Of a stretch of 39,113 bases of DNA, positions 13,763-37,490 are shown piece by piece. The stretch covers positions 1 through 39,113 of the forward strand of contig JAXGTM010000001.1 of assembly GCA_040774925.1 (NCBI GenBank). The letters are read 5' to 3'. The notes under the pieces are model-generated. The model was given only the letters and a program-made list of their open reading frames with translations. It did not search any database and was not told the DNA's origin. The first letter of the stretch is position 1. Every line of letters starts with the position of its first letter. The position numbers and the translations under genes are program-made. The stretch comes from Atribacterota bacterium. GTDB lineage: Bacteria > Atribacterota > Phoenicimicrobiia > Phoenicimicrobiales > Stramentimicrobiaceae.

Positions 13763-14956
13763 TTGGAAAAAAATTACCTGTTTACTTCTGAATCTGTTAC
13801 TGAAGGACATCCTGATAAGATTGCAGACCAGATTTCTGATGCAATATTGGATGATTTGTACAGACAGGATTTAGAGTCCAGAGTGGCTGTCGAGACACTC
13901 GTTGCAACCGGTTTGGTCCTTGTTGCTGGACAAATTACCACTGATGGATATGTCAATATACCAAAAATTGTACGGGACACCGTAAGGGAAATTGGTTATA
14001 CCAGAGCGAAATATGGGTTCGATTGTGATACCTGTGCAGTACTGACAACTATTGAAGAGCAGTCTAAGGATATCGCTCAAGGAGTCAATATGGCCTGGGA
14101 AGTTCGCGAAGAAAAAAATGAGCCCGAAAAGGACGTTGTTTCTTCTACCGGCGCAGGTGATCAGGGTATGATGTTCGGTTATGCCTGTCGTGAAACATCA
14201 GAACTAATGCCTTTACCAATTTCCTTAGCACATAAATTGACCTATCGCCTGGCAGAAGTCAGAAAAGAAAAAATACTGCCATATTTAAGACCTGATGGAA
14301 AATCTCAGGTAACAGTTCAGTATGTGAACGGTATTCCTCAAAGAGTTGAGGCAATCGTTATTGCTGCGCAGCATCATCCCAAAGTTGGGGTAGACACTCT
14401 GCGTAATGAAATTAAGGAGAATGTCATTAAAGCAGTTATTCCTGAAAGATATCTTGATGAAAATACAAAAATATTCATCAACTCTACCGGCAGATTTGTT
14501 ATTGGCGGACCGCAGGCAGACACAGGACTTACAGGAAGAAAGATAATTGTAGATACCTACGGAGGTGTAGGAAGTCATGGCGGTGGATGTTTCTCCGGCA
14601 AAGATCCTACCAAAGTAGACCGTTCCGGCAGCTATATTGCTAGATATATTGCAAAAAACATTGTTGCCTCTGGAATTGCTGACAAATGTGAAATACAAAT
14701 CGCTTACGCTATTGGTGTGGCAAATCCTGTTTCCATTATGATTGATACTTATGATACAGAAAAGATTCCTCATGAAAAAATTATTAAATTGATAAATAAA
14801 AATTTTGACTTAAGACCGGCAGCAATAATAGAAGAACTTAAATTAAAAAGACCTATTTATAAAAAGACAGCATCCTACGGACATTTCGGACGTGAATTAG
14901 ATGAATTTACCTGGGAAAAAGTAGATAAAGCTGATATTTTAAGAAAAGAACTGTAA
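13763..14956 (+). CDS. metK: S-adenosylmethionine synthetase
   Basis: TTG start after [36 protein letters not shown] motifs over the full length. Confidence 0.97.
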
Positions 14957-15039: not shown

Positions 15040-16086
15040 ATGAACATTACAGAACTACTCAATATTACCAGTGAAATGGGTGCATCGGATTTACACCTGA
15101 CTGTTGGTGTGCCACCTACTTTAAGAATCAATGGTCTGCTTAATAAATTAGATTATCCAGATTTAAGTGAAGATGATGTCTTTGAAATGATCTATAGTTT
15201 ATTGAGCGAAGAACACCGTAAGAAATTTGTAGAATTAAAAGAAATAGATTTTTCTTTGGAAATCGTTAATGGTTCTCGCTTCAGAGTAAATGTTTTTATG
15301 CACAGACGTGGTATAGCAGGTGCATTTCGTTTAATTCCGGAAAAGATAAAATCCCTGGAAGAATTAGGTTTACCCTTAAGATTGGCTGATTTTACCAGAA
15401 AACCTAAAGGACTAGTTCTAATTACCGGACCAACCGGAAGCGGAAAATCAACCACTATTGCCAGTCTCATTGATATTATTAATGAAAACCAAAAACTTCA
15501 TATTATAACAATAGAAGACCCCATTGAGTTCATTCATAAACATAAAAGCTGTATTATTGACCAGCGTGAAGTCGGTGTACATACCAGGTCTTTTTCTTAT
15601 GCTTTAAGAAGTGCCCTGAGAGAAGACCCGGATATTATCATGGTTGGAGAGATGAGGGATCTTGAAACAATATCTATGGCAGTAACGGCTGCAGAAACAG
15701 GACATTTAGTATTTTCAACACTCCACACAAACAGTGCTGCTGAAACTGTCGAACGAATTATTGACGTATTTCCATCACATCAGCAGCGACAGGTTCGCAT
15801 TCAGCTTGCTGAATCTCTGCAGGGAGTTGTTACACAGACTTTACTTCCCAGCATTGACGAGAGTAAAAGATATCCCGCAATAGAGATAATGTTTGCCACA
15901 CCCGCTATTAAGAATATTATACGTGAGGAACGTATCCATATGATACCCACAACCATTCAAAGCTCTCAGCAGTTTGGCATGCAGACACTTGACCAGTCTA
16001 TCAGACAGCTGTATCTTAATCACATGATAGATAGAGAAACTGCCTTATCCAAAGCAAATGATCCTAAATTTGTAGTTCCACATTGA
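15040..16086 (+). CDS. pilT: Type IV pilus retraction ATPase PilT, paralogue 1
   Basis: Walker A GPTGSGKST, Walker B IIMVGEMRD, His box GHLVFSTLHTN, PilT signature AIKNIIRE. About 348 aa. Confidence 0.9.
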   Translation: MNITELLNITSEMGASDLHLTVGVPPTLRINGLLNKLDYPDLSEDDVFEMIYSLLSEEHRKKFVELKEIDFSLEIVNGSRFRVNVFMHRRGIAGAFRLIPEKIKSLEELGLPLRLADFTRKPKGLVLITGPTGSGKSTTIASLIDIINENQKLHIITIEDPIEFIHKHKSCIIDQREVGVHTRSFSYALRSALREDPDIIMVGEMRDLETISMAVTAAETGHLVFSTLHTNSAAETVERIIDVFPSHQQRQVRIQLAESLQGVVTQTLLPSIDESKRYPAIEIMFATPAIKNIIREERIHMIPTTIQSSQQFGMQTLDQSIRQLYLNHMIDRETALSKANDPKFVVPH

Positions 16087-16167
16087 TTAATTATCATTTA
16101 TTTAATAATTTTATATTTATCGTAAGCTAATAACAATCAAAGACAGAAAGATATTCAGGGGTAAATT

Positions 16168-16623
16168 ATGATTGAGAACAAAAGAAAAAGACTCGGAGAG
16201 TTATTATTCGAATATGGAATAATAACCGGAGAGGAATTAGTAAGAGCATTAGAAGAACAGAATATCAAAAATAAAAGAATTGGACAGATACTGCTCGAAT
16301 TGAAACTCGTAACACAGGATCAGATTAATTGGGTTTTAAGCAAACAATTAGACATCCCTTATATACAGATTGATACTGCACAGCTTGATATAGAGCTACT
16401 AAAAAGATTTCCTGACTATCTAATAAAAAATTACTATGTTATTCCTTTGTTAGAAATAAATGATACTCTGGCTTTAGCTATGAGTGACCCTACTGATGAG
16501 GAAGCCATTAAGAAAATTAAGTCTTTTTATAACAGAGATATAGAAGTATCACTGGCTTCCTTCAGAAATATTTTTGAAATTATTCAATACATTGAGAAAG
16601 AATTTCCACATATCTGGGAATAA
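16168..16623 (+). CDS. Stand-alone MshEN / GspE-N-terminal (T2SSE_N) domain protein, no ATPase domain
   Basis: Residues 8-60 give two 24-residue MshEN-type motifs (RLGELLFEYGIITGEELVRALEEQ, 5-residue spacer NIKNK, RIGQILLELKLVTQDQINWVLSKQ). They are followed by a T2SSE_N-like segment (LDIPYIQID...YYVIPLLEINDTLALAMSDPTDEEAIKKI). The protein ends at 151 aa. Confidence 0.75.
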   Translation: MIENKRKRLGELLFEYGIITGEELVRALEEQNIKNKRIGQILLELKLVTQDQINWVLSKQLDIPYIQIDTAQLDIELLKRFPDYLIKNYYVIPLLEINDTLALAMSDPTDEEAIKKIKSFYNRDIEVSLASFRNIFEIIQYIEKEFPHIWE

Positions 16624-16682
16624 AATAACCATTTACAGCTATTTACGTAATACTATTTTATTGCAGGAGTTGAGGTATAGAG

Positions 16683-17741
16683 ATGGATTTAACAATACAG
16701 GAAGTTTTGAGAAAAGCCAGGGAAATGGGGGCATCAGATGTCCATTTTAATGTTGGTATTCCACCGGTTTTCCGTTTAAATGGCAAATTAATAAAAAGTG
16801 ACTACCCCCTTTTAGATGCAGAGGGTGTACATAAGATTATTTACAGTATTTTATCAGATAAGCAGAAAGAGATGTTTGAAAAAGATAGACAGTTGGATTT
16901 TGCTTATGAGATACCAGGAGTGTCACGATTTAGAATAAACATTTTCCGTCATAGACTCGGGGAAGCGGCGGCAATAAGATTAATACCGACAAAAATAATG
17001 ACAATTGAACAGCTCGGGCTACCGGATATTATCCGTACCTTAGCAGAACATACCAGAGGGATTGTCCTTGTTACAGGACCAACCGGAAGTGGCAAATCAA
17101 CTACTCTGGCGGCACTTATAGATATAATTAACAGAACCCGTTATGAGCATATCATATCAATAGAAGACCCTATTGAATATATCCATTTTCACAAAAATTG
17201 TGTTATCTCACAAAGAGAAATAGGAGACCACACAGACTCTTTTGCCAGCGCTCTAAGGGTTGCTCTTAGAGAAGACCCTGATGTTATACTGGTTGGAGAG
17301 ATGAGGGACCTTGAAACTATCTCTATGGCTTTAAGGGCTGCGGAAACCGGACACCTTGTATTTTCAACACTTCACACAAACAGCGCTGCCGAAACCATTG
17401 AACGAATTGTTAATGCTTTTCCAGCGCATCAACAGGCGCAGGCAAGACTGCAGGTAGCAGGGACTATTGAGGCGGTCATTGCACAGACTCTTATTCCAAC
17501 TGCTGATGGTCAGGGCAGGGTAGCAGCAGCCGAACTGATGCTTGCTACCCCTGCAATACGTAATCTCATAAGAGATGAGAAAATATACCAAATTCCATCA
17601 AGTATTCAGATTAGTAGAAAAATTGGCATGCAGAGTCTTGATCAATCATTAAAAGATTTACTGATGGCAGGAAAAATTACCAGAGATGATGCTGTTAAAA
17701 GAGCAATAAATAAAAAGGCTTTTCTTGACTATTTAGAATAA
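16683..17741 (+). CDS. pilT: Type IV pilus retraction ATPase PilT, paralogue 2
   Basis: Walker A GPTGSGKST, VILVGEMRD, GHLVFSTLHTN, canonical AIRNLIRD(E) signature. About 352 aa. Confidence 0.9.
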   Translation: MDLTIQEVLRKAREMGASDVHFNVGIPPVFRLNGKLIKSDYPLLDAEGVHKIIYSILSDKQKEMFEKDRQLDFAYEIPGVSRFRINIFRHRLGEAAAIRLIPTKIMTIEQLGLPDIIRTLAEHTRGIVLVTGPTGSGKSTTLAALIDIINRTRYEHIISIEDPIEYIHFHKNCVISQREIGDHTDSFASALRVALREDPDVILVGEMRDLETISMALRAAETGHLVFSTLHTNSAAETIERIVNAFPAHQQAQARLQVAGTIEAVIAQTLIPTADGQGRVAAAELMLATPAIRNLIRDEKIYQIPSSIQISRKIGMQSLDQSLKDLLMAGKITRDDAVKRAINKKAFLDYLE

Positions 17742-17835
17742 TATAATATTTTGACTTTATGAACAGGATTGAGTAAAATAACTGCAGTATTTGTTCTTTT
17801 GATATCTTAAAAAAATATGAATCGTTAATAGATTT

Positions 17836-18042
17836 TTAAGGGAAAGTAGATTGCCGGTTATGGTAATTGAACGACATCTCTTAAATAATATCTGGAATAT
17901 TATTTCATAATCTATACGTTACATTGCGTTAATAAAATGAGCGGAATGGAAAGTAAATATCCATTCAATGAGGGTGGCACCACGAGAAGAAATTTTCGTC
18001 CCTGATAGTACTATTATCTATAATAGAACTATCAGGTTTTTT
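17836..18042 (+). promoter_or_regulatory. T-box leader (tRNA-sensing transcription attenuator) upstream of hisS
   Basis: Specifier-loop-like helix: TTAAGGGA (17836-17843) pairs with TCTCTTAA (17877-17884). It encloses AAGUAG on the 5' side and UGAACGACA on the 3' side. Stem II-like hairpin AAATAATAT/ATATTATTT. Stem III GAATGGA/TCCATTC. T-box core AATGAGGGTGGCACCACG (17967-17984). Antiterminator helix ACGAGAA-GAAA-TTTTCGT. Terminator CCTGATAGT (18001-18009) / ACTATCAGG (18028-18036) plus T6 (18037-18042). Confidence 0.85.
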
Positions 18043-18157
18043 GTTTATTATAACCCTAAGAAAAAAACGAAATTTGTGATAACTCTTTTTTAAAATAGCT
18101 TATATTTTAGTGAAACAGTTTCATTTATAGAATAAAACATTTTCAAAGGAGAAAATA

Positions 18158-19438
18158 TTGTTAACAAGTTCACCGAAAGGGACCAACGATATACTTCCCG
18201 TTCAGATAGACCAATGGTACTATCTGGAAGAAGTAATAAAGAAAGTATTGCAAAATTATGGTTACAGAGAGATTAGAACACCTGCTTTTGAGCATATAGA
18301 ATTATTCATCAGAGGCATAGGTGAGGCGACCGATATAGTGAAAAAAGAGATGTTTACTTTTCAGGATCGAAAAGGAAGGAATCTCGCTCTTCGCCCTGAA
18401 GGGACTGCACCTGTTGTCAGAGCCTATCTCGAACATAGTCTCGGCAGAGACAATCCAATAAGTAAATTATTTTATATTGGTAATATGTTTCGCTGTGAAA
18501 AACCACAGGCTGGAAGGTATCGCCAATTTAGCCAGTTCGGTTCAGAGGCTATCGGTTCTTTTTTGCCTGTAATAGATGCCGAAATAATCTCTTCCTGTTT
18601 AGCCGTCTATGAGGAGTTAGGATTATCTAATTTGCAATTGATGTTGAATAGTGTTGGATGTAGAAAATGCAGACCATTATATATAAAGAGTCTAAAAGAA
18701 TATTTTCATGACAAGAGAGATATGCTCTGCGTCGATTGCAAGCAGCGTTATGAAGAAAATCCGTTGAGGATACTTGATTGCAAAAAAGAGAAATGCCGCA
18801 TAGTAATTGACAAATCTCCTTCTATTTTTGACTACTTATGTGAAGAATGTGCTACACATTTTAATGAATTACAAAAATATCTGAATGAATTAGGAATAAG
18901 CTATCAGATTAATCCGCAACTGGTCAGAGGATTGGATTATTATACTAAAACTGCTTTTGAGGTAATATCAGGAGAACTGGGGGCTCAGAATGCCATTGGG
19001 GGAGGCGGAAGATATGATTATCTGGCGGAAGAGCTTGGCGGTAAACCTACTCCGGCTGTTGGATTCGCAGCAGGAATGGAAAGAGTTCTGGAAACAATGG
19101 CAAAACAGGCAATAAAAATACCTGCCTGGAAGGGAATAAATGTCTTTTTAGCTGTGACCGATAAAGAGCAGAGCAGCCTTGCATTGTCTATTGCTAATCA
19201 GATAAGGGAAAAAGGAATATCAGCTGAATTGGATTTCCTTGGTAAAAGTTTGAAGGCACAGATGAGAATGGCAAATAAATTACAGGTGCCATTTGCTGTC
19301 ATTTTAGGACAGGAAGAGTTAAAAAATAATCAAGTAACTATCAAAGATATGCTAAAGGGAACACAGGAAGAGATATACCTGAAAGATATAATCTCATATT
19401 TGCAGAAGCTTATACATAAAGATAATTATAGTAAATAG
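18158..19438 (+). CDS. hisS: Histidine--tRNA ligase
   Basis: AAGGAG RBS then TTG start. PKGTNDILP N-terminus, class II motifs (FRCEKPQAGRYRQF, GGGGRYD), HisRS Cys-rich insertion, C-terminal anticodon-binding domain. Confidence 0.95.
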   Translation: MLTSSPKGTNDILPVQIDQWYYLEEVIKKVLQNYGYREIRTPAFEHIELFIRGIGEATDIVKKEMFTFQDRKGRNLALRPEGTAPVVRAYLEHSLGRDNPISKLFYIGNMFRCEKPQAGRYRQFSQFGSEAIGSFLPVIDAEIISSCLAVYEELGLSNLQLMLNSVGCRKCRPLYIKSLKEYFHDKRDMLCVDCKQRYEENPLRILDCKKEKCRIVIDKSPSIFDYLCEECATHFNELQKYLNELGISYQINPQLVRGLDYYTKTAFEVISGELGAQNAIGGGGRYDYLAEELGGKPTPAVGFAAGMERVLETMAKQAIKIPAWKGINVFLAVTDKEQSSLALSIANQIREKGISAELDFLGKSLKAQMRMANKLQVPFAVILGQEELKNNQVTIKDMLKGTQEEIYLKDIISYLQKLIHKDNYSK

Positions 19439-23014: not shown

Positions 23015-23235
23015 AAAGTGTGACAACCGATAAGTTACCCTGCTGTGAACGCTTAACTGTATAAGTTTTGACCCAACACTTTTTAAAAAGGTAATCGACC
23101 TCCGAATGTGTAATGCAAGCCTGTGGTTCCCAAGAGGGTTACCTAAGATTAGCAGAGATGTTAATTAACTGGAAGCATAAAGCACTCGGGTAGATATCCA
23201 CCTGTTTGAGGGGTCGGTATCAAAACTTGTAGTTG
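23015..23235 (+). ncRNA. ssrS: Putative 6S RNA (SsrS); boundaries approximate
   Basis: About 220 nt with no plausible ORF, directly downstream of the promoter above. Extended imperfect 5'/3' complementarity (for example ACCGA 23027-23031 with TCGGT 23214-23218, CCC 23038-23040 with GGGG 23210-23213) and an apical helix (GGTAA..CCTC with GAGGGTTACC). Sits immediately upstream of the 5-formyl-THF cyclo-ligase gene, the classical ssrS-ygfA linkage. Confidence 0.55.
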
Positions 23236-23376
23236 GCGACATGGCGGGGTTATTCTTTATTTTAACCATATACCCAATTTATTTAATGGCTGTCAAAAAG
23301 TTTCATAAGTATCAAAAGTTTCAGAATATATAGAGTAAATCTACAATTCTATTGACAAGATATTGTTAGTTGTATT

Positions 23377-26197: not shown

Positions 26198-27919
26198 TTG
26201 GACATAAGGGATGAGAATAAGCCTTATCTTTCCAACCTGAAATTGGGTGAAATCCTTATAAATCAGGGTTATATAAAACCTGAACAATTAAAAAAAGCTT
26301 TAGATGCCCAAAAAACTGATGGGAAAAGTAAGATAGGAGAAATCCTTATAAATCAGGGTAGTATTACACAAAAACAGCTCAATGACGCATTACAGCATGT
26401 ATATGAAACTGAGTATGTTGAGCTTGATGATATTGTAATTGACCCTGAATTAATTTCCCTTATCCCCAAAAAGATAGCACAGCGTTTTAAATTGGTACCA
26501 CTGAACAAAGATGATAATGTTCTGACCATAGCTATGGCAAATCCTTTGGATTTTAACGCTATAAACTATATCAAAGAATATACCAAAATGGATATCAGAA
26601 CAAAATTTTCTTCAGAAAATGATATCTTAAATTCTTTAAGCAGCAGTTATGATGATGTATATCAGTTTGATGATCTCCTTGATAAAGTAGATGTTGCAAC
26701 AGTTATAGATATTTCAGATGAAGTCAATCTTTCTGCTCTGGAAGCAATAAGCCAGGAAGCGCCCATCATTCAGCTGGTAAACATGATTATAGTAGACGGC
26801 ATAAAAGAGCGAGCCAGTGACATACATTTAGAACCAAATCAAAGAGGTCTGCTCGTTAGATACCGTATAGACGGTATGTTGCATGATATTCGGTTATTGC
26901 CGGTAAGGGTGAAGCCTGCGGTAATATCGAGAGTCAAAATATTATCAAACATGGACATAGCTGAGAGAAGGCTGCCTCAGGACGGCCGTTTCCAACTGCG
27001 CTTTGGAGCCCGTGAAGTTGATTTGCGCGTATCCTCTATTCCTACTGTCCATGATGAAAAAATAGTAATGCGTCTTCTGGACAAGAGCCAGGGTGTCATC
27101 AGTCTTGACAGTGTTGGCTTTACCGGAGAGCAGGCAGAACAATTCCGCAAGATGATACATTATCCTCACGGCATTATTCTTTTAACCGGACCGACCGGCA
27201 GTGGAAAGAGTACCACTTTGTATGCTGCCTTAAATGAAGTAGATTCAACCAAAAAAAATATTATCACAGTAGAAGACCCGGTTGAATACAAACTTGACAG
27301 AATAAATCAAATTAATGTCAGACCAAAAATTAACCTTACCTTCGCCAATGCCCTGCGCTCCATACTGCGTCAGGACCCTGATGTCATCATGATAGGAGAG
27401 ATGAGAGACTCAGATACAGCTCATATAGCCATTCAGTCAGCACTTACAGGGCATCTTGTCTTAAGTACACTTCATACTAATGATGCAGTAAGCTCCTTAA
27501 CCAGAATGACCGATATGGGTGTTGAGCCATTCCTGATCTCTTCTTCTGTAATAGGAGTTATGGCACAAAGATTGGTACGCAAAATCTGCCCCAGATGTAT
27601 AGAAGATTATATTCCTGAAGAGAGTATATTCAATGAACTTAAACTGAATATTACCTTGCCTGACAGGGATAAAATAAGGCTTTACCGGGGAAAGGGATGC
27701 GACTATTGTAAAAATACCGGATACTACGGAAGAATAGCAATATTTGAAATGATAGAGATAAATGATGAAATACGCTCAATGATTTTAAGAAAAGTATCAA
27801 GTAATGAGATAAAAGAAACTGCCATTCGCTATGGTATGAAAACCCTTCTTGACAGTGGAATTAATAAGGCACTGGAAGGCGTTACATCTATTGACGAAGT
27901 ATTTCGTGTAGCAGTTTAA
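26198..27919 (+). CDS. pilB: Type IV pilus assembly ATPase PilB/GspE family, paralogue 1, with MshEN-type N-terminus
   Basis: AAGGAG RBS 7 nt before the TTG start. N-terminal tandem motifs, T2SSE_N segment, Walker A GPTGSGKST, IMIGEMRD, GHLVLSTLHTND, tetra-Cys CPRC...CDYC. Confidence 0.9.
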   Translation: MDIRDENKPYLSNLKLGEILINQGYIKPEQLKKALDAQKTDGKSKIGEILINQGSITQKQLNDALQHVYETEYVELDDIVIDPELISLIPKKIAQRFKLVPLNKDDNVLTIAMANPLDFNAINYIKEYTKMDIRTKFSSENDILNSLSSSYDDVYQFDDLLDKVDVATVIDISDEVNLSALEAISQEAPIIQLVNMIIVDGIKERASDIHLEPNQRGLLVRYRIDGMLHDIRLLPVRVKPAVISRVKILSNMDIAERRLPQDGRFQLRFGAREVDLRVSSIPTVHDEKIVMRLLDKSQGVISLDSVGFTGEQAEQFRKMIHYPHGIILLTGPTGSGKSTTLYAALNEVDSTKKNIITVEDPVEYKLDRINQINVRPKINLTFANALRSILRQDPDVIMIGEMRDSDTAHIAIQSALTGHLVLSTLHTNDAVSSLTRMTDMGVEPFLISSSVIGVMAQRLVRKICPRCIEDYIPEESIFNELKLNITLPDRDKIRLYRGKGCDYCKNTGYYGRIAIFEMIEINDEIRSMILRKVSSNEIKETAIRYGMKTLLDSGINKALEGVTSIDEVFRVAV

Positions 27920-34189: not shown

Positions 34190-35920
34190 ATGGTAGCCCG
34201 CTTTGTAAAAGAAAAAGGAATAACAGGCGATTTTTTATTAAATCTGCTGATAAATAAGAAAATTATCGGAAGCAAGGAAATAGACGATATTTGTCAGAAG
34301 CAGATTAATAATAAGACCTCTATCGAAAGAATTATCCTCTCTTCAGGCATAATAAACAAAAAAGAGATGATGAAACTACTTTCAGAAGAGATTGGCGTTC
34401 CCTATGTTGAGCTTGAGGGCAAGAGTTTTGACCCAACCGTCGTCGCTACACTATCTGAGGAGATTTCCCGTAAGCACAATATAGTTACTATCGGTAAAAA
34501 TAAGGGAAAACTCGTTGTCGCTATGGCAAACCCACTCGATGTCTACATACATGATGAGATCCGTATCACTACCGGTTTTGAAGTGGAGCCATACCTCGCT
34601 TTTAAAGATGATATCAATAAGGCGCTCGATTCAGTATACGGTATCACTGAAAACTGGCAAAACATGATAGGAGATATTGCCGCACTGCCCGTTACCGCTG
34701 TTGAAGAAGAAGCAGAGGAGATGGAGATAACAAAGGGTATTTCCGAAAGTCATGAGACTCCGGTTATCGCTCTGGTCAATCTTATTATGCTCAGAGCTAT
34801 CAAGGAGGGAGCGAGCGACATACATGTGGAACCTTCCGGTGATAAGAACCTCAAGGTTAGGTATCGTATTGACGGTATACTGCATGATATCATGTCACCT
34901 CCCAGAAGTCTGCATATGGCAATAATCTCCAGAATAAAGATTATGTCTAATCTTAATATAGCCGAAAGGCGTCTGCCGCAGGATGGAAGGATTAAGGTAC
35001 AGGTACACGGAAGAGAAGTTAATTTTAGAGTATCTACTATTCCGGCTGTTAATGGTGAAAGTGCTGTCTTGAGAATATTAGACCCGGCTCAAATAATGCT
35101 TGACCTGAAATCTATCGGTTTTTCTGATGAAAATTATGAAAAATATCAGCAGCTGATAGAAAAGCCAAATGGCATTATACTCGTTACAGGTCCTACCGGC
35201 AGCGGTAAATCTACTACCCTTTATGCAACCTTAAATATCTTAAATTCGGTAGAGAAAAAGATTATGACTATCGAAGATCCTGTTGAATACCGTTTGGATG
35301 GTATAAGTCAATTACAGGCAAAACCAAAAATAGGCCTCACCTTTGCTGCCGGATTGCGCAGTTTTCTCCGTCAGGACCCTGATATTATGCTGGTAGGAGA
35401 AATAAGGGATAAAGAGACAGCCGATATCGCTATACAGTCAGCTCTAACCGGCCATCTGGTCTTGAGTACTCTGCACACAAATGATGCGCCCAGTTCAGTC
35501 ATTCGTCTGGTAGATATGGGTATTGAACCATTTCTAATCTCATCATCAGTTATTGGAGTAGTTGCTCAGAGATTGGTGCGTAAGATATGTTCCTATTGTA
35601 AAAAAGAAGCTGCCATCACAGATGAGATAAAAATGGTTATGGAAGAGTTCAATATTCCCCCCGGTGAAATAAGACTATTCCATGGGGAAGGATGTCCACA
35701 TTGCAAGGGGACAGGTTATAAAGGCAGAACAGCAATATTTGAATTGATGGTGATAAATGAGCCGATAAGAGAATTAATTTACAAAAATGCGCCTATTTCT
35801 GAAATCAGAGCTACTGCTATAAAAAAAGGTGGAATGATTTCTTTAAAAGAAGATGGTTTAAATAAGATAAGTGAGGGTGTTACCACACTGGAAGAAGTAA
35901 TGCGAGCAACATCCAGCTGA
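34190..35920 (+). CDS. pilB: Type IV pilus assembly ATPase PilB/GspE family, paralogue 2
   Basis: T2SSE_N segment (VATLSEEISRKHNIVTIGKNKGKLVVAMANPLD), Walker A GPTGSGKST, MLVGEIRD, GHLVLSTLHTND, tetra-Cys CSYC...CPHC. Confidence 0.9.
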   Translation: MVARFVKEKGITGDFLLNLLINKKIIGSKEIDDICQKQINNKTSIERIILSSGIINKKEMMKLLSEEIGVPYVELEGKSFDPTVVATLSEEISRKHNIVTIGKNKGKLVVAMANPLDVYIHDEIRITTGFEVEPYLAFKDDINKALDSVYGITENWQNMIGDIAALPVTAVEEEAEEMEITKGISESHETPVIALVNLIMLRAIKEGASDIHVEPSGDKNLKVRYRIDGILHDIMSPPRSLHMAIISRIKIMSNLNIAERRLPQDGRIKVQVHGREVNFRVSTIPAVNGESAVLRILDPAQIMLDLKSIGFSDENYEKYQQLIEKPNGIILVTGPTGSGKSTTLYATLNILNSVEKKIMTIEDPVEYRLDGISQLQAKPKIGLTFAAGLRSFLRQDPDIMLVGEIRDKETADIAIQSALTGHLVLSTLHTNDAPSSVIRLVDMGIEPFLISSSVIGVVAQRLVRKICSYCKKEAAITDEIKMVMEEFNIPPGEIRLFHGEGCPHCKGTGYKGRTAIFELMVINEPIRELIYKNAPISEIRATAIKKGGMISLKEDGLNKISEGVTTLEEVMRATSS

Positions 35921-36010
35921 TACATTGTTAATGTAATAAACGGAAAAACATTCAATCCATTAAATTATTTATCAAAAGATTTTCTAAAAAATTTTAAAAC
36001 TTTTTGACTG

Positions 36011-36036
36011 GAGCATTACTTTTATAGTAATGGCTC
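36011..36036 (+). terminator. Hairpin downstream of pilB2, possible weak terminator
   Basis: GAGCATTACT (36011-36020) pairs with AGTAATG-G-CTC (36026-36036), 5-nt loop, followed by the T-rich ACTTTCTTTG. Confidence 0.35.
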
Positions 36037-36281
36037 ACTTTCTTTGTTGATAAGAAAGACATTAAATTTTACCCTGCATCAGATTAACTTTACAGCACTT
36101 TAAAATTTCTGCTAAAATAAGAGTATAAAATATAGAATCATCACATATATCTCTACAATAATAGTATACGAATATAAAATATGCTGTTATACTATATTTA
36201 ATCATATTATGCAAATACAGCACAGCCGAATTTTGTCTTTTCTGTTTTATATGTCTGTTAAATCAGGAGGTGTAATAAATA

Positions 36282-37490
36282 ATGGCAACCTATACCTATA
36301 GAGCCAGAGATAATGCTGGAAAATTATTTTCTGGAATAATGGAGGCAGATAGCCAGGAAGCAGTTATTGAACGCCTGAGAGAATTGAGATATTTTATCAT
36401 ATCAGTAAATAAAAAAAGACAGACCGGCTTATCTACCGAAATAAATCTTTTCAAAAGTATCAAGATAAGAGACCTGGCAATCTTCTACCGGCAATTTGCC
36501 ACAATGGTAAATGCAGGTCTCGCACTGGTCAGCTGTCTCGATATATTATCAAAACAGACCGAAAACAAACTGTTAGCCCGGAAGGTAGGAGAAATCAAAA
36601 AGAGTGTTGAGCAGGGCTCCACACTTGCCGATGCCTTTGCCAGTCACCCGGAGACCTTTTCCAAGCTGTATATCAACATGATTAAGGCCGGAGAGCTGGG
36701 CGGAGTGCTTGATGATGTTTTAAACCGTATGGCTACCCTGATGGAGAAAGAATATGAACTCCGTCAGAAAATTAAATCAGCTATGACCTATCCCGTCTTT
36801 ATCTTTGGGGCTGCCTTTGTAATGGGAATATTTGTCCTCGTTTTTATTTTACCCCAATTTGTACAGGTATTCCAGCAATTCGGCGGAGAGATGCCCTTTT
36901 TAACCAAGATGCTGGTCGCAGTGACTACGGCGTTTAACCGGTACTGGTATATCTTTTTTGGTGCGCTCGCTCTCCTTGTATTCGCTTTTCTATCCTATAA
37001 CCGTACCAAACAGGGTCATAAGAATATAGACCGATTAAAGTTAAAATTACCCATCTTTGGTAACCTCTTTTTAAAGACATCTATCAACCGTTTTACCAGA
37101 ACACTCGGCACCTTAATCCGCAGCGGGGTCCCCATTATTCAGTCTCTTAAAGTATCAGCAGAATCTATCGGTAATGATATTCTGGCAGAAGCGGTAATGA
37201 GTGCTGCGGAAAGAATTAAAGAGGGGCAGAGTATCTCCACACCGCTGGAGGAGAGCAGGGTATTTCCGCCTATGGTTACTCAGATGATTATGGTTGGTGA
37301 GGAGAGCGGTGAGCTGGAAAGTATGCTAATAAATGTTGCTCAGTTCTATGATCAGGAAGTGGAAAGAGCAGTTGAACAGCTTACCTCTGTCATAGAACCC
37401 ATTCTAATGATTGTTGTTGCCGGAGTTGTCGGCGTGATGGTTATAGCAATGTATCTCCCCATATTCAGTATGGTAAATTTAATACAGTAG
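36282..37490 (+). CDS. pilC: Type IV pilus platform protein PilC (GspF/T2SSF family)
   Basis: AGGAGG RBS. Two T2SSF repeats (FYRQFATMVNAGL... and FTRTLGTLIRSGVP...), three TM segments, about 402 aa. Confidence 0.9.
   Translation: MATYTYRARDNAGKLFSGIMEADSQEAVIERLRELRYFIISVNKKRQTGLSTEINLFKSIKIRDLAIFYRQFATMVNAGLALVSCLDILSKQTENKLLARKVGEIKKSVEQGSTLADAFASHPETFSKLYINMIKAGELGGVLDDVLNRMATLMEKEYELRQKIKSAMTYPVFIFGAAFVMGIFVLVFILPQFVQVFQQFGGEMPFLTKMLVAVTTAFNRYWYIFFGALALLVFAFLSYNRTKQGHKNIDRLKLKLPIFGNLFLKTSINRFTRTLGTLIRSGVPIIQSLKVSAESIGNDILAEAVMSAAERIKEGQSISTPLEESRVFPPMVTQMIMVGEESGELESMLINVAQFYDQEVERAVEQLTSVIEPILMIVVAGVVGVMVIAMYLPIFSMVNLIQ

What the first reader, a model, noticed from the sequence alone, without database searches (positions are those of the whole stretch)
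15040..17741. Tandem PilT paralogues split by a small non-ATPase gene, with no other pilus genes nearby
Two full-length PilT retraction ATPases sit 597 nt apart in the same orientation. Both have Walker A/B, the His box and the AIRNLIRE-type signature (AIKNIIRE versus AIRNLIRD). They share stretches of high nucleotide identity, for example around TTTTCAACAC(T/C)(C/T)CACACAAACAG. They flank a 151-aa gene. The trio lies between metK and the hisS T-box leader, with no pilin, pilB, pilC or pilMNOPQ adjacent. Both copies keep the PilT signature that PilU-type paralogues usually lack. This therefore looks like two true retraction motors plus an adaptor, not a PilT/PilU pair.
Basis: partly seen in the sequence, partly recalled or inferred. 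Interest (0 to 1): 0.6.

Follow-up and report, generated by a model that had tools for sequence, protein, structure and literature searches.

The report
Two PilT motors flanking detached MshEN sensor
In one order of the uncultured phylum Atribacterota, two genuine pilus-retraction (PilT) motor genes flank a small gene that encodes only the c-di-GMP-receptor-type head domain normally built into the pilus-extension motor, which suggests (untested) that this second messenger acts on pilus retraction.

Summary
Two full-length PilT genes (15040-16086 and 16683-17741, 57% identical) flank a 151-aa gene (16168-16623) between metK and a T-box/hisS.

Both ATPases are PilT-type, not PilT/PilU. They exceed the TIGR01420 cut-off, keep AIRNLIRE-like motifs and score about 100 bits higher against solved PilT than PilU. 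In trees they form one lineage-specific clade apart from PilU-like proteins.

The small gene is a free-standing MshEN domain, the N-terminal c-di-GMP receptor domain of MshE/PilB. Pfam, NCBIfam and a high-confidence AlphaFold model agree, with V. cholerae MshE plus c-di-GMP as the best fold match. Both 24-residue motifs and the 5-residue spacer are kept, apart from the motif Gly.

The cassette occurs in 26 of 86 Atribacterota genomes, all in one order. Other families have one pilT inside pilB-pilT-pilC. MshEN is always followed by the downstream PilT where the contig allows, and the two were lost together several times. Actinomycetota (Nitriliruptoria) carry MshEN-PilT fusions.

"No pilus genes nearby" is only locally true: two pilB genes and pilC lie 8-19 kb downstream. 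In the sister family the T-box leader sits in front of MshEN-PilT-hisS.

The function is inferred, not shown. Earlier scan notes describe similar detached MshEN genes in Omnitrophota.

The parts
13763..14956 (+). metK (S-adenosylmethionine synthetase), the conserved upstream neighbour of the cassette
   Evidence: ORF. Orthologues lie upstream of PilT-up in relatives of both families.
15040..16086 (+). PilT-up (PilTA), a PilT-type retraction ATPase of 348 aa with the motif AIKNIIRE
   Evidence: TIGR01420 480.4 bits against a cut-off of 319. PDB PilT about 380 bits against PilU 277. Falls in the UP_f1 clade, support 100/99. RBS AGAGG read.
16168..16623 (+). Free-standing MshEN domain protein, 151 aa
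   Evidence: PF05157 5.8e-15. NF053729 c-di-GMP_motif 57.7 bits against a cut-off of 38. AF2 pLDDT 93.2. Foldseek top hit 5HTL MshE with c-di-GMP, E 3e-10. dN/dS about 0.1.
16189..16347 (+). Tandem 24-residue c-di-GMP-type motifs (residues 8-31 and 37-60) with a 5-residue spacer (NIKNK)
   Evidence: RLGELLFEYGIITGEELVRALEEQ / NIKNK / RIGQILLELKLVTQDQINWVLSKQ. Motif 1 fits the published relaxed pattern. Motif 2 fits except for Lys at position 10 (pattern from PMC5013675).
16683..17741 (+). PilT-down (PilTB), a PilT-type retraction ATPase of 352 aa with the motif AIRNLIRD
   Evidence: TIGR01420 481.7 bits. PDB PilT 390 bits against PilU 285. Falls in the DOWN_f1 clade, support 100/100. Always follows MshEN in relatives where the contig allows.
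17751..17779 (+). Promoter-like site (TTGACT-17-TAAAAT) in front of the T-box leader
   Evidence: Consensus scan, 10 of 12 matches. A pattern match only.
17827..18043 (+). T-box leader (17827-18006) plus a terminator-like hairpin and U-run (about 18000-18043) in front of hisS
   Evidence: RF00230 75.4 bits, below the gathering score of 93, E 1.8e-16. Hairpin CCCTGATAG...CTATCAGG followed by TTTTTT read.
18158..19438 (+). hisS, the conserved downstream neighbour
   Evidence: Pfam tRNA-synt_His. Synteny.
26198..27919 (+). PilB1 (MshEN + T2SSE extension-type ATPase) with a degenerate c-di-GMP signature
   Evidence: Pfam. Only motif 1 fits the relaxed pattern and the spacer is 6 residues.
34190..35920 (+). 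PilB2 (MshEN + T2SSE) with no c-di-GMP motif
   Evidence: Pfam. No motif match.
36282..37490 (+). PilC platform protein (T2SSF), 362 nt after PilB2
   Evidence: Pfam PF00482. Other Atribacterota families have pilB-pilT-pilC here.

Best explanation
SHOWN. The trio is a retraction-motor module specific to one order of Atribacterota. An in-lineage duplication gave two intact PilT-type hexameric ATPase genes. Between them sits a separately encoded MshEN domain, the N-terminal c-di-GMP-receptor domain of MshE/PilB-type extension ATPases. This gene is under purifying selection, folds like MshE-N, and keeps the Arg/Lys-h-Gly heads, the Leu/Ile contacts, the terminal Gln residues and the 5-residue spacer of the ligand site.

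INFERRED. The MshEN protein works with the downstream PilT as an in-trans N-terminal domain. It would bind c-di-GMP, made by the genome's GGDEF proteins, and thereby control whether or how PilT-down engages the PilC/PilM platform or hydrolyses ATP. Second-messenger level would then set the balance between extension (PilB1/PilB2, whose own MshEN motifs are degenerate or absent) and retraction. PilT-up would be the constitutive retraction motor, because it is the copy kept when the other two genes are lost.
For: Both genes are PilT-type:
- TIGR01420 about 480 bits.
- 377-390 bits to solved PilTs against 277-285 to PilU 9n32.
- AIRNLIRE-type motifs are present, and this motif is absent in PilU (PMC6762196).
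- In the careful IQ-TREE, all PilTs of families f1 and f2 form one clade (100/97). They are separated from a PilU-like clade (98/96) that includes the genes downstream of pilT in Pseudomonas and Marinobacter.

Identity of the small gene:
-.
- Motifs are conserved in all 26 orthologues.
- dN/dS is about 0.1.

Linkage to PilT-down:
- MshEN orthologues occur in 26 of 86 genomes. 25 of these 26 have at least 2 PilTs, and the exception is cut by a contig end.
- MshEN is directly followed, after a 30-90 nt gap, by PilT-down in every locus not cut by a contig end.
- Five f1 genomes (G002, G003, G005, G006, G014) have metK-PilTup-Tbox-hisS with both genes gone. They are scattered among cassette-bearing sisters in the tree, which implies at least 3-4 independent co-losses.
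- G029 keeps a decayed MshEN remnant and no PilT-down.
- Both PilBs persist in genomes without MshEN.

Rosetta-stone support: MshEN-PilT fusion proteins form 29 clusters in Nitriliruptoria, including cultured Egicoccus and Nitriliruptor alkaliphilus.

c-di-GMP is plausible in this organism: at least 4 GGDEF genes, and a pilus machine is present, with PilM and a secretin.
Against: - No binding or interaction was tested.
- The motif Gly (position 10) is replaced in at least one of the two motifs in every orthologue, and the published relaxed pattern does not allow this.
- Co-loss of two adjacent genes can be a single deletion, so it is weaker evidence than co-loss of unlinked genes.
- PilT-down can persist without MshEN: G027 and G031 have PilT-PilT, and G075 has Tbox-PilTdown-hisS.
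- The Actinomycetota fusions arose independently and have a degenerate ligand motif.
- None of 80 PilT loci from other phyla has a small MshEN gene within 4 kb.
Confidence: 0.55

Rival explanations
1. The free-standing MshEN is the c-di-GMP sensor, or a decoy, for the extension motors. It would act on PilB1/PilB2 or compete with their N-terminal domains for the platform. Its position between the PilTs would be incidental.
For: PilB1 has a degenerate signature (Lys heads, 6-residue spacer, second motif broken) and PilB2 has none, whereas the free-standing protein has the best-kept signature of the three. Earlier scan notes describe the same pattern in Omnitrophota. Trans-acting c-di-GMP adaptors on PilB N-domains are known, for example FimX-PilZ-PilB (PMC8389850; PDB 7LKM among the fold matches).
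Against: Its presence tracks PilT-down, not the PilBs. Genomes that lost MshEN keep both PilBs. The gap to PilT-down is short. MshEN-PilT fusions exist.
Confidence: 0.2
2. There is a functional division of labour like PilT/PilU. One copy (PilT-down) is an accessory motor that works only through the other, despite being PilT-type by sequence. MshEN would be a minor modulator or irrelevant.
For: PilT paralogues that cannot replace PilT are known, for example Neisseria PilT-2 and PilU (PMC6762196). PilT-up is the copy retained when one is lost in f1.
Against: Both copies keep AIRNLIRE-type motifs and all catalytic boxes. Neither clusters with PilU-like proteins. G075 keeps only a PilT-down-type copy.
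Confidence: 0.15
3. The 151-aa ORF is a functionless relic, a detached pilB 5' fragment, and the tandem PilTs are simply redundant.
For: The gene has been lost several times. Position 10 Gly of the motif is not conserved.
Against: The ORF is intact in 26 genomes across two families at 42-75% identity. dN/dS is about 0.1. The AF2 model has pLDDT 93. It is only 32% identical to the genome's own PilB1 N-terminus, so it is not a recent fragment. An RBS is present.
Confidence: 0.03

Closest known systems
PilT/PilU tandem retraction ATPases of Pseudomonas, Vibrio and Acinetobacter (PMC6762196)
   Same: Two PilT-family hexameric ATPase genes lie in tandem on one strand, with a possible division of labour between a main and a second motor.
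   Different: Here both copies keep the AIRNLIRE-type motif and form one lineage-specific PilT clade apart from PilU-like proteins. A third gene separates them.
MshEN domain of V. cholerae MshE and of PilB-type ATPases (PDB 5HTL; PMC5013675); PilF GSPII-B of Thermus (PMC11731258)
   Same: Same Pfam and NCBIfam families, same fold (best Foldseek hit 5HTL, TM 0.68-0.72), and the same two 24-residue motifs with a 5-residue spacer.
   Different: It is not fused to any ATPase. It is encoded next to retraction motors, not within an extension motor. The motif Gly is substituted. Binding is untested.
MshEN-PilT fusion proteins of Nitriliruptoria (Egicoccus spp., Nitriliruptor alkaliphilus), found here and annotated only as 'PilT/PilU family ATPase'
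   Same: The same two domains (MshEN plus a PilT-type ATPase) are associated, in a pilus operon.
   Different: They form one polypeptide with a roughly 40-residue linker. They arose independently: the PilT part groups with Actinomycetota PilTs. The ligand motif is degenerate in the example read.
FimX-PilZ-PilB complex of Xanthomonas (PMC8389850)
   Same: A separate c-di-GMP-binding protein regulates a pilus motor in trans, and the MshEN-type N-domain serves as the docking surface.
   Different: The receptor type is different (degenerate EAL/PilZ). Its target is the extension motor, not PilT.
Free-standing MshEN genes in Omnitrophota pilus operons
   Same: A detached MshEN with a kept ligand signature sits beside pilus motors whose own signatures are degraded.
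   Different: A different phylum and a different layout (next to pilB/pilT and a degenerate GGDEF, not between two PilTs). I did not test those notes.

Membership tests
PilT (type IVa pilus retraction ATPase; TIGR01420 PilT/PilU family) | Full-length match above the curated cut-off | tested here: met
   480.4 and 481.7 bits against a cut-off of 319.1, covering model positions 2-342.
PilT (type IVa pilus retraction ATPase; TIGR01420 PilT/PilU family) | Walker A, Asp box, Walker B and His box intact | tested here: met
   GPTGSGKST, EDPIE, VGEMRD and TGHLVFSTLHT are present in both translations and invariant in alignment A1.
PilT (type IVa pilus retraction ATPase; TIGR01420 PilT/PilU family) | C-terminal AIRNLIRE motif, which is present in PilT and absent in PilU (PMC6762196) | tested here: met
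   AIKNIIRE and AIRNLIRD. The same column in PilU-like proteins reads LMSDLIFK, RIKDLIKK and similar.
PilT (type IVa pilus retraction ATPase; TIGR01420 PilT/PilU family) | Groups with PilT and not with PilU in a phylogeny | tested here: met
   Careful IQ-TREE of 73 rows. The PilU-like clade is separated at 98/96, and the f1+f2 PilTs form one clade at 100/97 next to PilT-motif proteins. PDB PilT scores 377-390 bits against PilU 277-285.
PilT (type IVa pilus retraction ATPase; TIGR01420 PilT/PilU family) | Powers pilus retraction | not testable with these tools
   Needs genetics or biochemistry.
PilU (PilT-dependent accessory ATPase) | Lacks AIRNLIRE and belongs to the PilU clade | tested here: not met
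   Both copies keep the motif and lie outside the PilU-like clade.
MshEN c-di-GMP receptor domain (PF05157; NF053729) | Profile matches above the curated cut-offs | tested here: met
   PF05157 55.5 bits against 23.1. NF053729 57.7 bits against 38, covering model positions 1-53.
MshEN c-di-GMP receptor domain (PF05157; NF053729) | Fold: an N-terminal four-helix bundle plus an alpha/beta C-subdomain | tested here: met
   AF2 pLDDT 93.2 and pTM 0.79. Foldseek top hits are 5HTL (E 3e-10, TM 0.68-0.72), then X. citri PilB-N and PilF GSPII-B with c-di-GMP.
MshEN c-di-GMP receptor domain (PF05157; NF053729) | Two 24-residue motifs [RKPN]hGxxhhxx[GAS]hhxxxxhxxxhxx[QNKRYWST] joined by 5 residues (PMC5013675) | tested here: inconclusive
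   Motif 1 fits. Motif 2 fits except for Lys at position 10. The spacer is 5 residues. Across 26 orthologues every position is kept except position 10, which fails in at least one motif of each.
MshEN c-di-GMP receptor domain (PF05157; NF053729) | Binds c-di-GMP | not testable with these tools
   Needs ITC, DRaCALA or MST. The genome does encode at least 4 GGDEF proteins.
MshE/PilB-type extension ATPase | MshEN domain fused to a T2SSE ATPase in one polypeptide | tested here: not met
   The ORF has 151 aa, its own RBS and its own stop. Gaps of 81 and 59 nt separate it from the neighbouring genes. It is a separate ORF in all 26 genomes.
T-box leader (RF00230) in front of hisS | Covariance-model match with the T-box sequence and a terminator | tested here: inconclusive
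   75.4 bits, below the gathering score of 93, but E 1.8e-16 over the full model length and AGGGUGGCACCACG present. Terminator-like hairpin read. Relatives score up to 94.4 bits.

The most novel reading that the evidence does not exclude
The detached MshEN protein is a c-di-GMP-gated clutch for a dedicated second retraction motor. It would be the first direct second-messenger input to a PilT-type ATPase, acting in trans here and in cis in the Nitriliruptoria MshEN-PilT fusions. In the sister Atribacterota family the MshEN-PilT pair additionally sits behind a T-box leader, so uncharged tRNA (amino-acid starvation) would switch on regulated pilus retraction together with hisS-asnS-aspS.
Probability: 0.25. 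Interest if true: 0.75.

Novelty: new variant of a known kind. Interest (0 to 1): 0.55.

Why it matters
All described c-di-GMP control of type IV pili acts on the extension motor (MshE, PilB, PilF) or on adaptors that bind it (reviewed in PMC11656802). How retraction motors are regulated is largely open.

A conserved MshEN gene wedged between two true PilTs, co-inherited and co-lost with one of them, points to a direct messenger input to retraction. The independent MshEN-PilT fusions in cultured actinobacteria point the same way.

This can be tested with three small soluble proteins. The placement of the pair behind a T-box leader in the sister family would, if functional, extend T-box regulons beyond amino-acid metabolism.

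The cassette also documents how the canonical pilB-pilT-pilC operon was dismantled and scattered among housekeeping genes in one Atribacterota order.

Tried and rejected
- PilT/PilU pair: rejected by motif, PDB scores and two trees.
- Small gene as relic or pseudogene: rejected by conservation, dN/dS about 0.1 and a confident fold.
- MshEN as a recent fragment of the genome's own pilB: rejected. It is only 32% identical to PilB1-N and 21% to PilB2-N.
- MshEN as a fragment of a frameshifted MshEN-PilT fusion: rejected. The ORFs are separate, with stops, gaps and RBSs, in all 26 genomes.
- Simple positional orthology of the upstream copies of the two families: the best tree places f2-up with the downstream copies (99/97). 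The AU test does not reject up-copy monophyly (p 0.08), so this stays unresolved.
- c-di-GMP riboswitch or other known RNA in the cassette: none in the window at gathering scores and none in 10 related loci at E <= 0.01.
- A free-standing MshEN next to PilT outside the phylum: none within 4 kb in 80 PilT loci from other phyla. About 13 of the best 149 library representatives are MshEN-only proteins of 200 aa or fewer. Their context could not be fetched.
- Terminators between the three genes: none convincing.
- Complex prediction: no multimer tool, and structure prediction returns no inter-domain error map. I therefore did not spend the second job on the fusion.
- Literature: no paper found that links MshEN to PilT as partner or fusion, or a T-box to pilT.
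Full report
**1. Observation**

The ORF map shows three genes on the + strand. PilT-up is at 15040-16086 (348 aa), a 151-aa ORF is at 16168-16623, and PilT-down is at 16683-17741 (352 aa). The gaps between them are 81 and 59 nt, and each gene has a Shine-Dalgarno-like sequence.

The two ATPases are 57% identical over 343 residues. Each scores about 480 bits against TIGR01420, whose cut-off is 319. It encodes the His box.

metK precedes the trio. Downstream, Rfam finds a T-box leader at 17827-18006. It scores 75.4 bits, below the gathering score of 93, which is why the default scan missed it. Its E-value is 1.8e-16 over the full model. It is followed by a terminator-like hairpin with a U-run and then hisS.

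The only factual weakness is "no pilB, pilC ... adjacent". The same window holds two PilB-type ATPases (26198-27919 and 34190-35920) and PilC (36282-37490). Elsewhere the genome holds PilM and a secretin.

**2. What the parts are**

Both ATPases are PilT-type.
- They carry all catalytic boxes plus AIKNIIRE and AIRNLIRD. The AIRNLIRE motif is conserved in PilT and absent from PilU (PMC6762196).
- Against solved structures they score 377-390 bits to P. aeruginosa, Geobacter and Aquifex PilT, but 277-285 bits to PilU 9n32.
- For a phylogeny I collected PilT-family ORFs from 60 Atribacterota loci and from 80 named loci of other phyla. Many of the latter carry a second, downstream paralogue.
- In the motif column, 41 external proteins read LMSDLIFK, RIKDLIKK and similar. 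These include the genes directly downstream of pilT in Pseudomonas sp. and Marinobacter.
- They form a separate clade at 98/96 in a careful IQ-TREE run. All PilTs of the window's order form one clade at 100/97, nested among PilT-motif proteins.

The pair is therefore a lineage-specific PilT duplication.

The 151-aa protein is a free-standing MshEN domain.
- PF05157 gives 5.8e-15, and NCBIfam's c-di-GMP motif model NF053729 gives 57.7 bits against a cut-off of 38.
- The best PDB sequence matches are PilB, PilF and MshE N-termini.
- An AlphaFold2 model built on 34 sequences has pLDDT 93.2. Its best structural match is V. cholerae MshE-N bound to c-di-GMP (5HTL, E 3e-10, TM 0.68-0.72). X. citri PilB-N and c-di-GMP-bound PilF GSPII-B follow.
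- The published signature is two 24-residue motifs joined by five residues (PMC5013675). Here it reads RLGELLFEYGIITGEELVRALEEQ / NIKNK / RIGQILLELKLVTQDQINWVLSKQ.
- Motif 1 fits even the relaxed pattern. Motif 2 fits except for Lys at position 10.
- In 26 orthologues every signature position is kept except that Gly, which is replaced in at least one motif of each. The source paper notes that perfect conservation may not be needed, but binding remains untested.
- The genome's own PilB1 has a degraded signature and PilB2 has none.
- The genome has at least four GGDEF genes.
- dN/dS against close orthologues is about 0.1, with dS near or above saturation.

**3. Distribution and evolution**

Source names place the organism in Atribacterota.
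- Orthologues of the small gene occur in 26 of 86 genomes of the phylum. All 26 are in two families (f1, f2) of one order, and none is in the other 34 genomes.
- Those other families have a single pilT inside a canonical pilB-pilT-pilC operon. In the window's order that operon has been dismantled. PilB2 and PilC are neighbours with a 362-nt gap, and the PilTs sit between metK and hisS.
- Of the 26 genomes with MshEN, 25 have at least two PilTs, and the exception is cut by a contig end.
- In every locus not truncated, MshEN is immediately followed by PilT-down.
- Five f1 genomes (G002, G003, G005, G006, G014) have metK-PilTup-Tbox-hisS, with both MshEN and PilT-down missing. Their PilT belongs to the up clade and is interleaved with cassette-bearing sisters; for example G003 is sister to G004 at 99. 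This implies at least three or four independent joint losses.
- G029 keeps PilT-up, a decayed MshEN remnant with a stop, and no PilT-down.

There are counter-examples. G027 and G031 have PilT-PilT with no MshEN. The small MshEN-like frame on another G027 contig is the start of a pilB. G075 has Tbox-PilTdown-hisS only. So MshEN is never seen without PilT-down, whereas PilT-down can exist without MshEN. That is the pattern expected for an accessory of that motor.

Both PilBs persist where MshEN is absent.

The best tree gives UP_f1,(UP_f2,(DOWN_f1,DOWN_f2)). An AU test does not reject monophyly of the upstream copies (p 0.08). The order of events is therefore unresolved.

**4. Independent association of the two domains**

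Among 80 PilT loci from other phyla, none has a small MshEN gene within 4 kb. One of them, from Egicoccus sp., encodes a 531-aa MshEN-linker-PilT fusion inside pilB-[fusion]-pilC.

A database search found 29 clusters of this architecture in Nitriliruptoria. They include isolate genomes of Egicoccus and Nitriliruptor alkaliphilus and are annotated only as PilT/PilU family ATPases. The PilT part groups with actinobacterial PilTs, so the fusion is independent of the Atribacterota cassette.

An exhaustive HMMER search shows that MshEN-only proteins of 200 aa or fewer are not rare: about 13 of the best 149 representatives. It also found one 887-aa MshEN-MshEN-PilT-type protein.

Earlier notes of this scan report detached MshEN genes in Omnitrophota pilus operons and another MshEN-PilT fusion clade. 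I did not test those. One follow-up report overlapping my stretch was withheld.

**5. T-box position (beyond the finding)**

In f1 (11 genomes, including this one) the order is PilTup-MshEN-PilTdown-[T-box]-hisS.

In f2 (13 genomes) it is metK-mmuM-PilTup-[T-box]-MshEN-PilTdown-hisS-asnS-aspS. Rfam scores there reach 81-94 bits. In L021 a promoter-like site lies upstream of the leader, a clear terminator lies at 1328-1364, and the MshEN start follows about 105 nt later.

In f2 the pair is thus placed to be read through from a tRNA-sensing leader. A weak internal promoter cannot be excluded. I found no paper linking T-boxes to pilT.

**6. Mechanism**

Shown: two intact PilT-type motors; a conserved, well-folded, selected MshEN-only protein with a nearly complete ligand signature; its genomic coupling to PilT-down; and independent fusions of the same two domains.

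Inferred: the protein supplies PilT-down in trans with the N-terminal regulatory and docking domain that extension motors carry in cis, making engagement or activity of that motor responsive to c-di-GMP. PilT-up would be the default retraction motor.

The main rival is that the protein senses the messenger for, or competes with, the PilBs. That reading fits the degraded PilB signatures but not the co-occurrence pattern.

**7. Verdict**

The reading "two true PilTs, not PilT/PilU" is supported. "Adaptor" is sharpened to a detached MshEN domain that is probably tied to the downstream PilT.

This is a new variant of known parts and is not described in the literature I could search. It is of moderate to good interest because it makes second-messenger control of retraction testable.

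Noticed in passing
L018:1140-1336, L021:1136-1336, L077:4647-4847 (- strand) and 10 further family-f2 genomes; window 17827-18006 for comparison: In the sister family the T-box leader lies between PilT-up and MshEN, so MshEN-PilTdown-hisS-asnS-aspS all follow the leader and its terminator. In the window's family the same leader lies after PilT-down. A pilus retraction motor behind a T-box would be an unusual regulon member.
   Followed up: partly
L109:3461-5053 (Egicoccus sp. MAG); P0058-P0086: MshEN-linker-PilT fusion proteins of 530-610 aa sit inside pilB-[fusion]-pilC in Nitriliruptoria, including cultured Egicoccus spp. and Nitriliruptor alkaliphilus. They are annotated only as PilT/PilU family ATPases. 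The ligand motif looks degenerate in the example read.
   Followed up: partly
window 34190-37490; L062-L072, L079: Other Atribacterota families have a canonical pilB-pilT-pilC operon. In this order PilB2 and PilC remain neighbours with a 362-nt gap where pilT would be. PilB1 sits alone between rpsA and alaS. The order's PilTs group closer to PilTs of other phyla than to the canonical Atribacterota PilTs (100/98, unrooted), so their origin is unresolved.
   Followed up: partly
window 17868-17876; alignment: At the aligned specifier position the T-box reads GAACGACAUC in f1 and GAAAGACCCC in f2. GAC (Asp) is conserved, and in f1 it overlaps CAU (His). The leader in front of hisS-asnS-aspS may therefore sense tRNA-Asp and not tRNA-His, as another first-reader note proposed.
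   Followed up: partly
window 1-39113: Every ORF of 100 aa or more that has a Pfam match lies on the + strand across all 39 kb. Cumulative GC skew rises steadily. This looks like one long co-oriented array of housekeeping genes with pilus genes interspersed.
   Followed up: no
window 23034-23254: 6S RNA (RF00013, 74.9 bits, above the gathering score) lies between aspS and the 5-formyl-THF cyclo-ligase gene.
   Followed up: no
L075:590-721, L077:8330-8440 (- strand): Family f2 has a SAM riboswitch in front of metK and a homocysteine S-methyltransferase gene (PF02574) between metK and PilT-up. The window has neither: an SLT transglycosylase gene ends 66 nt before metK.
   Followed up: no
L073:3052-4119 (G017, family f1): One f1 genome has a divergent PilT (48% identical) next to a PilC. 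In the tree it pairs with a Saccharimonadales PilT (97, on a long branch). This may be contamination of the bin or horizontal transfer.
   Followed up: no
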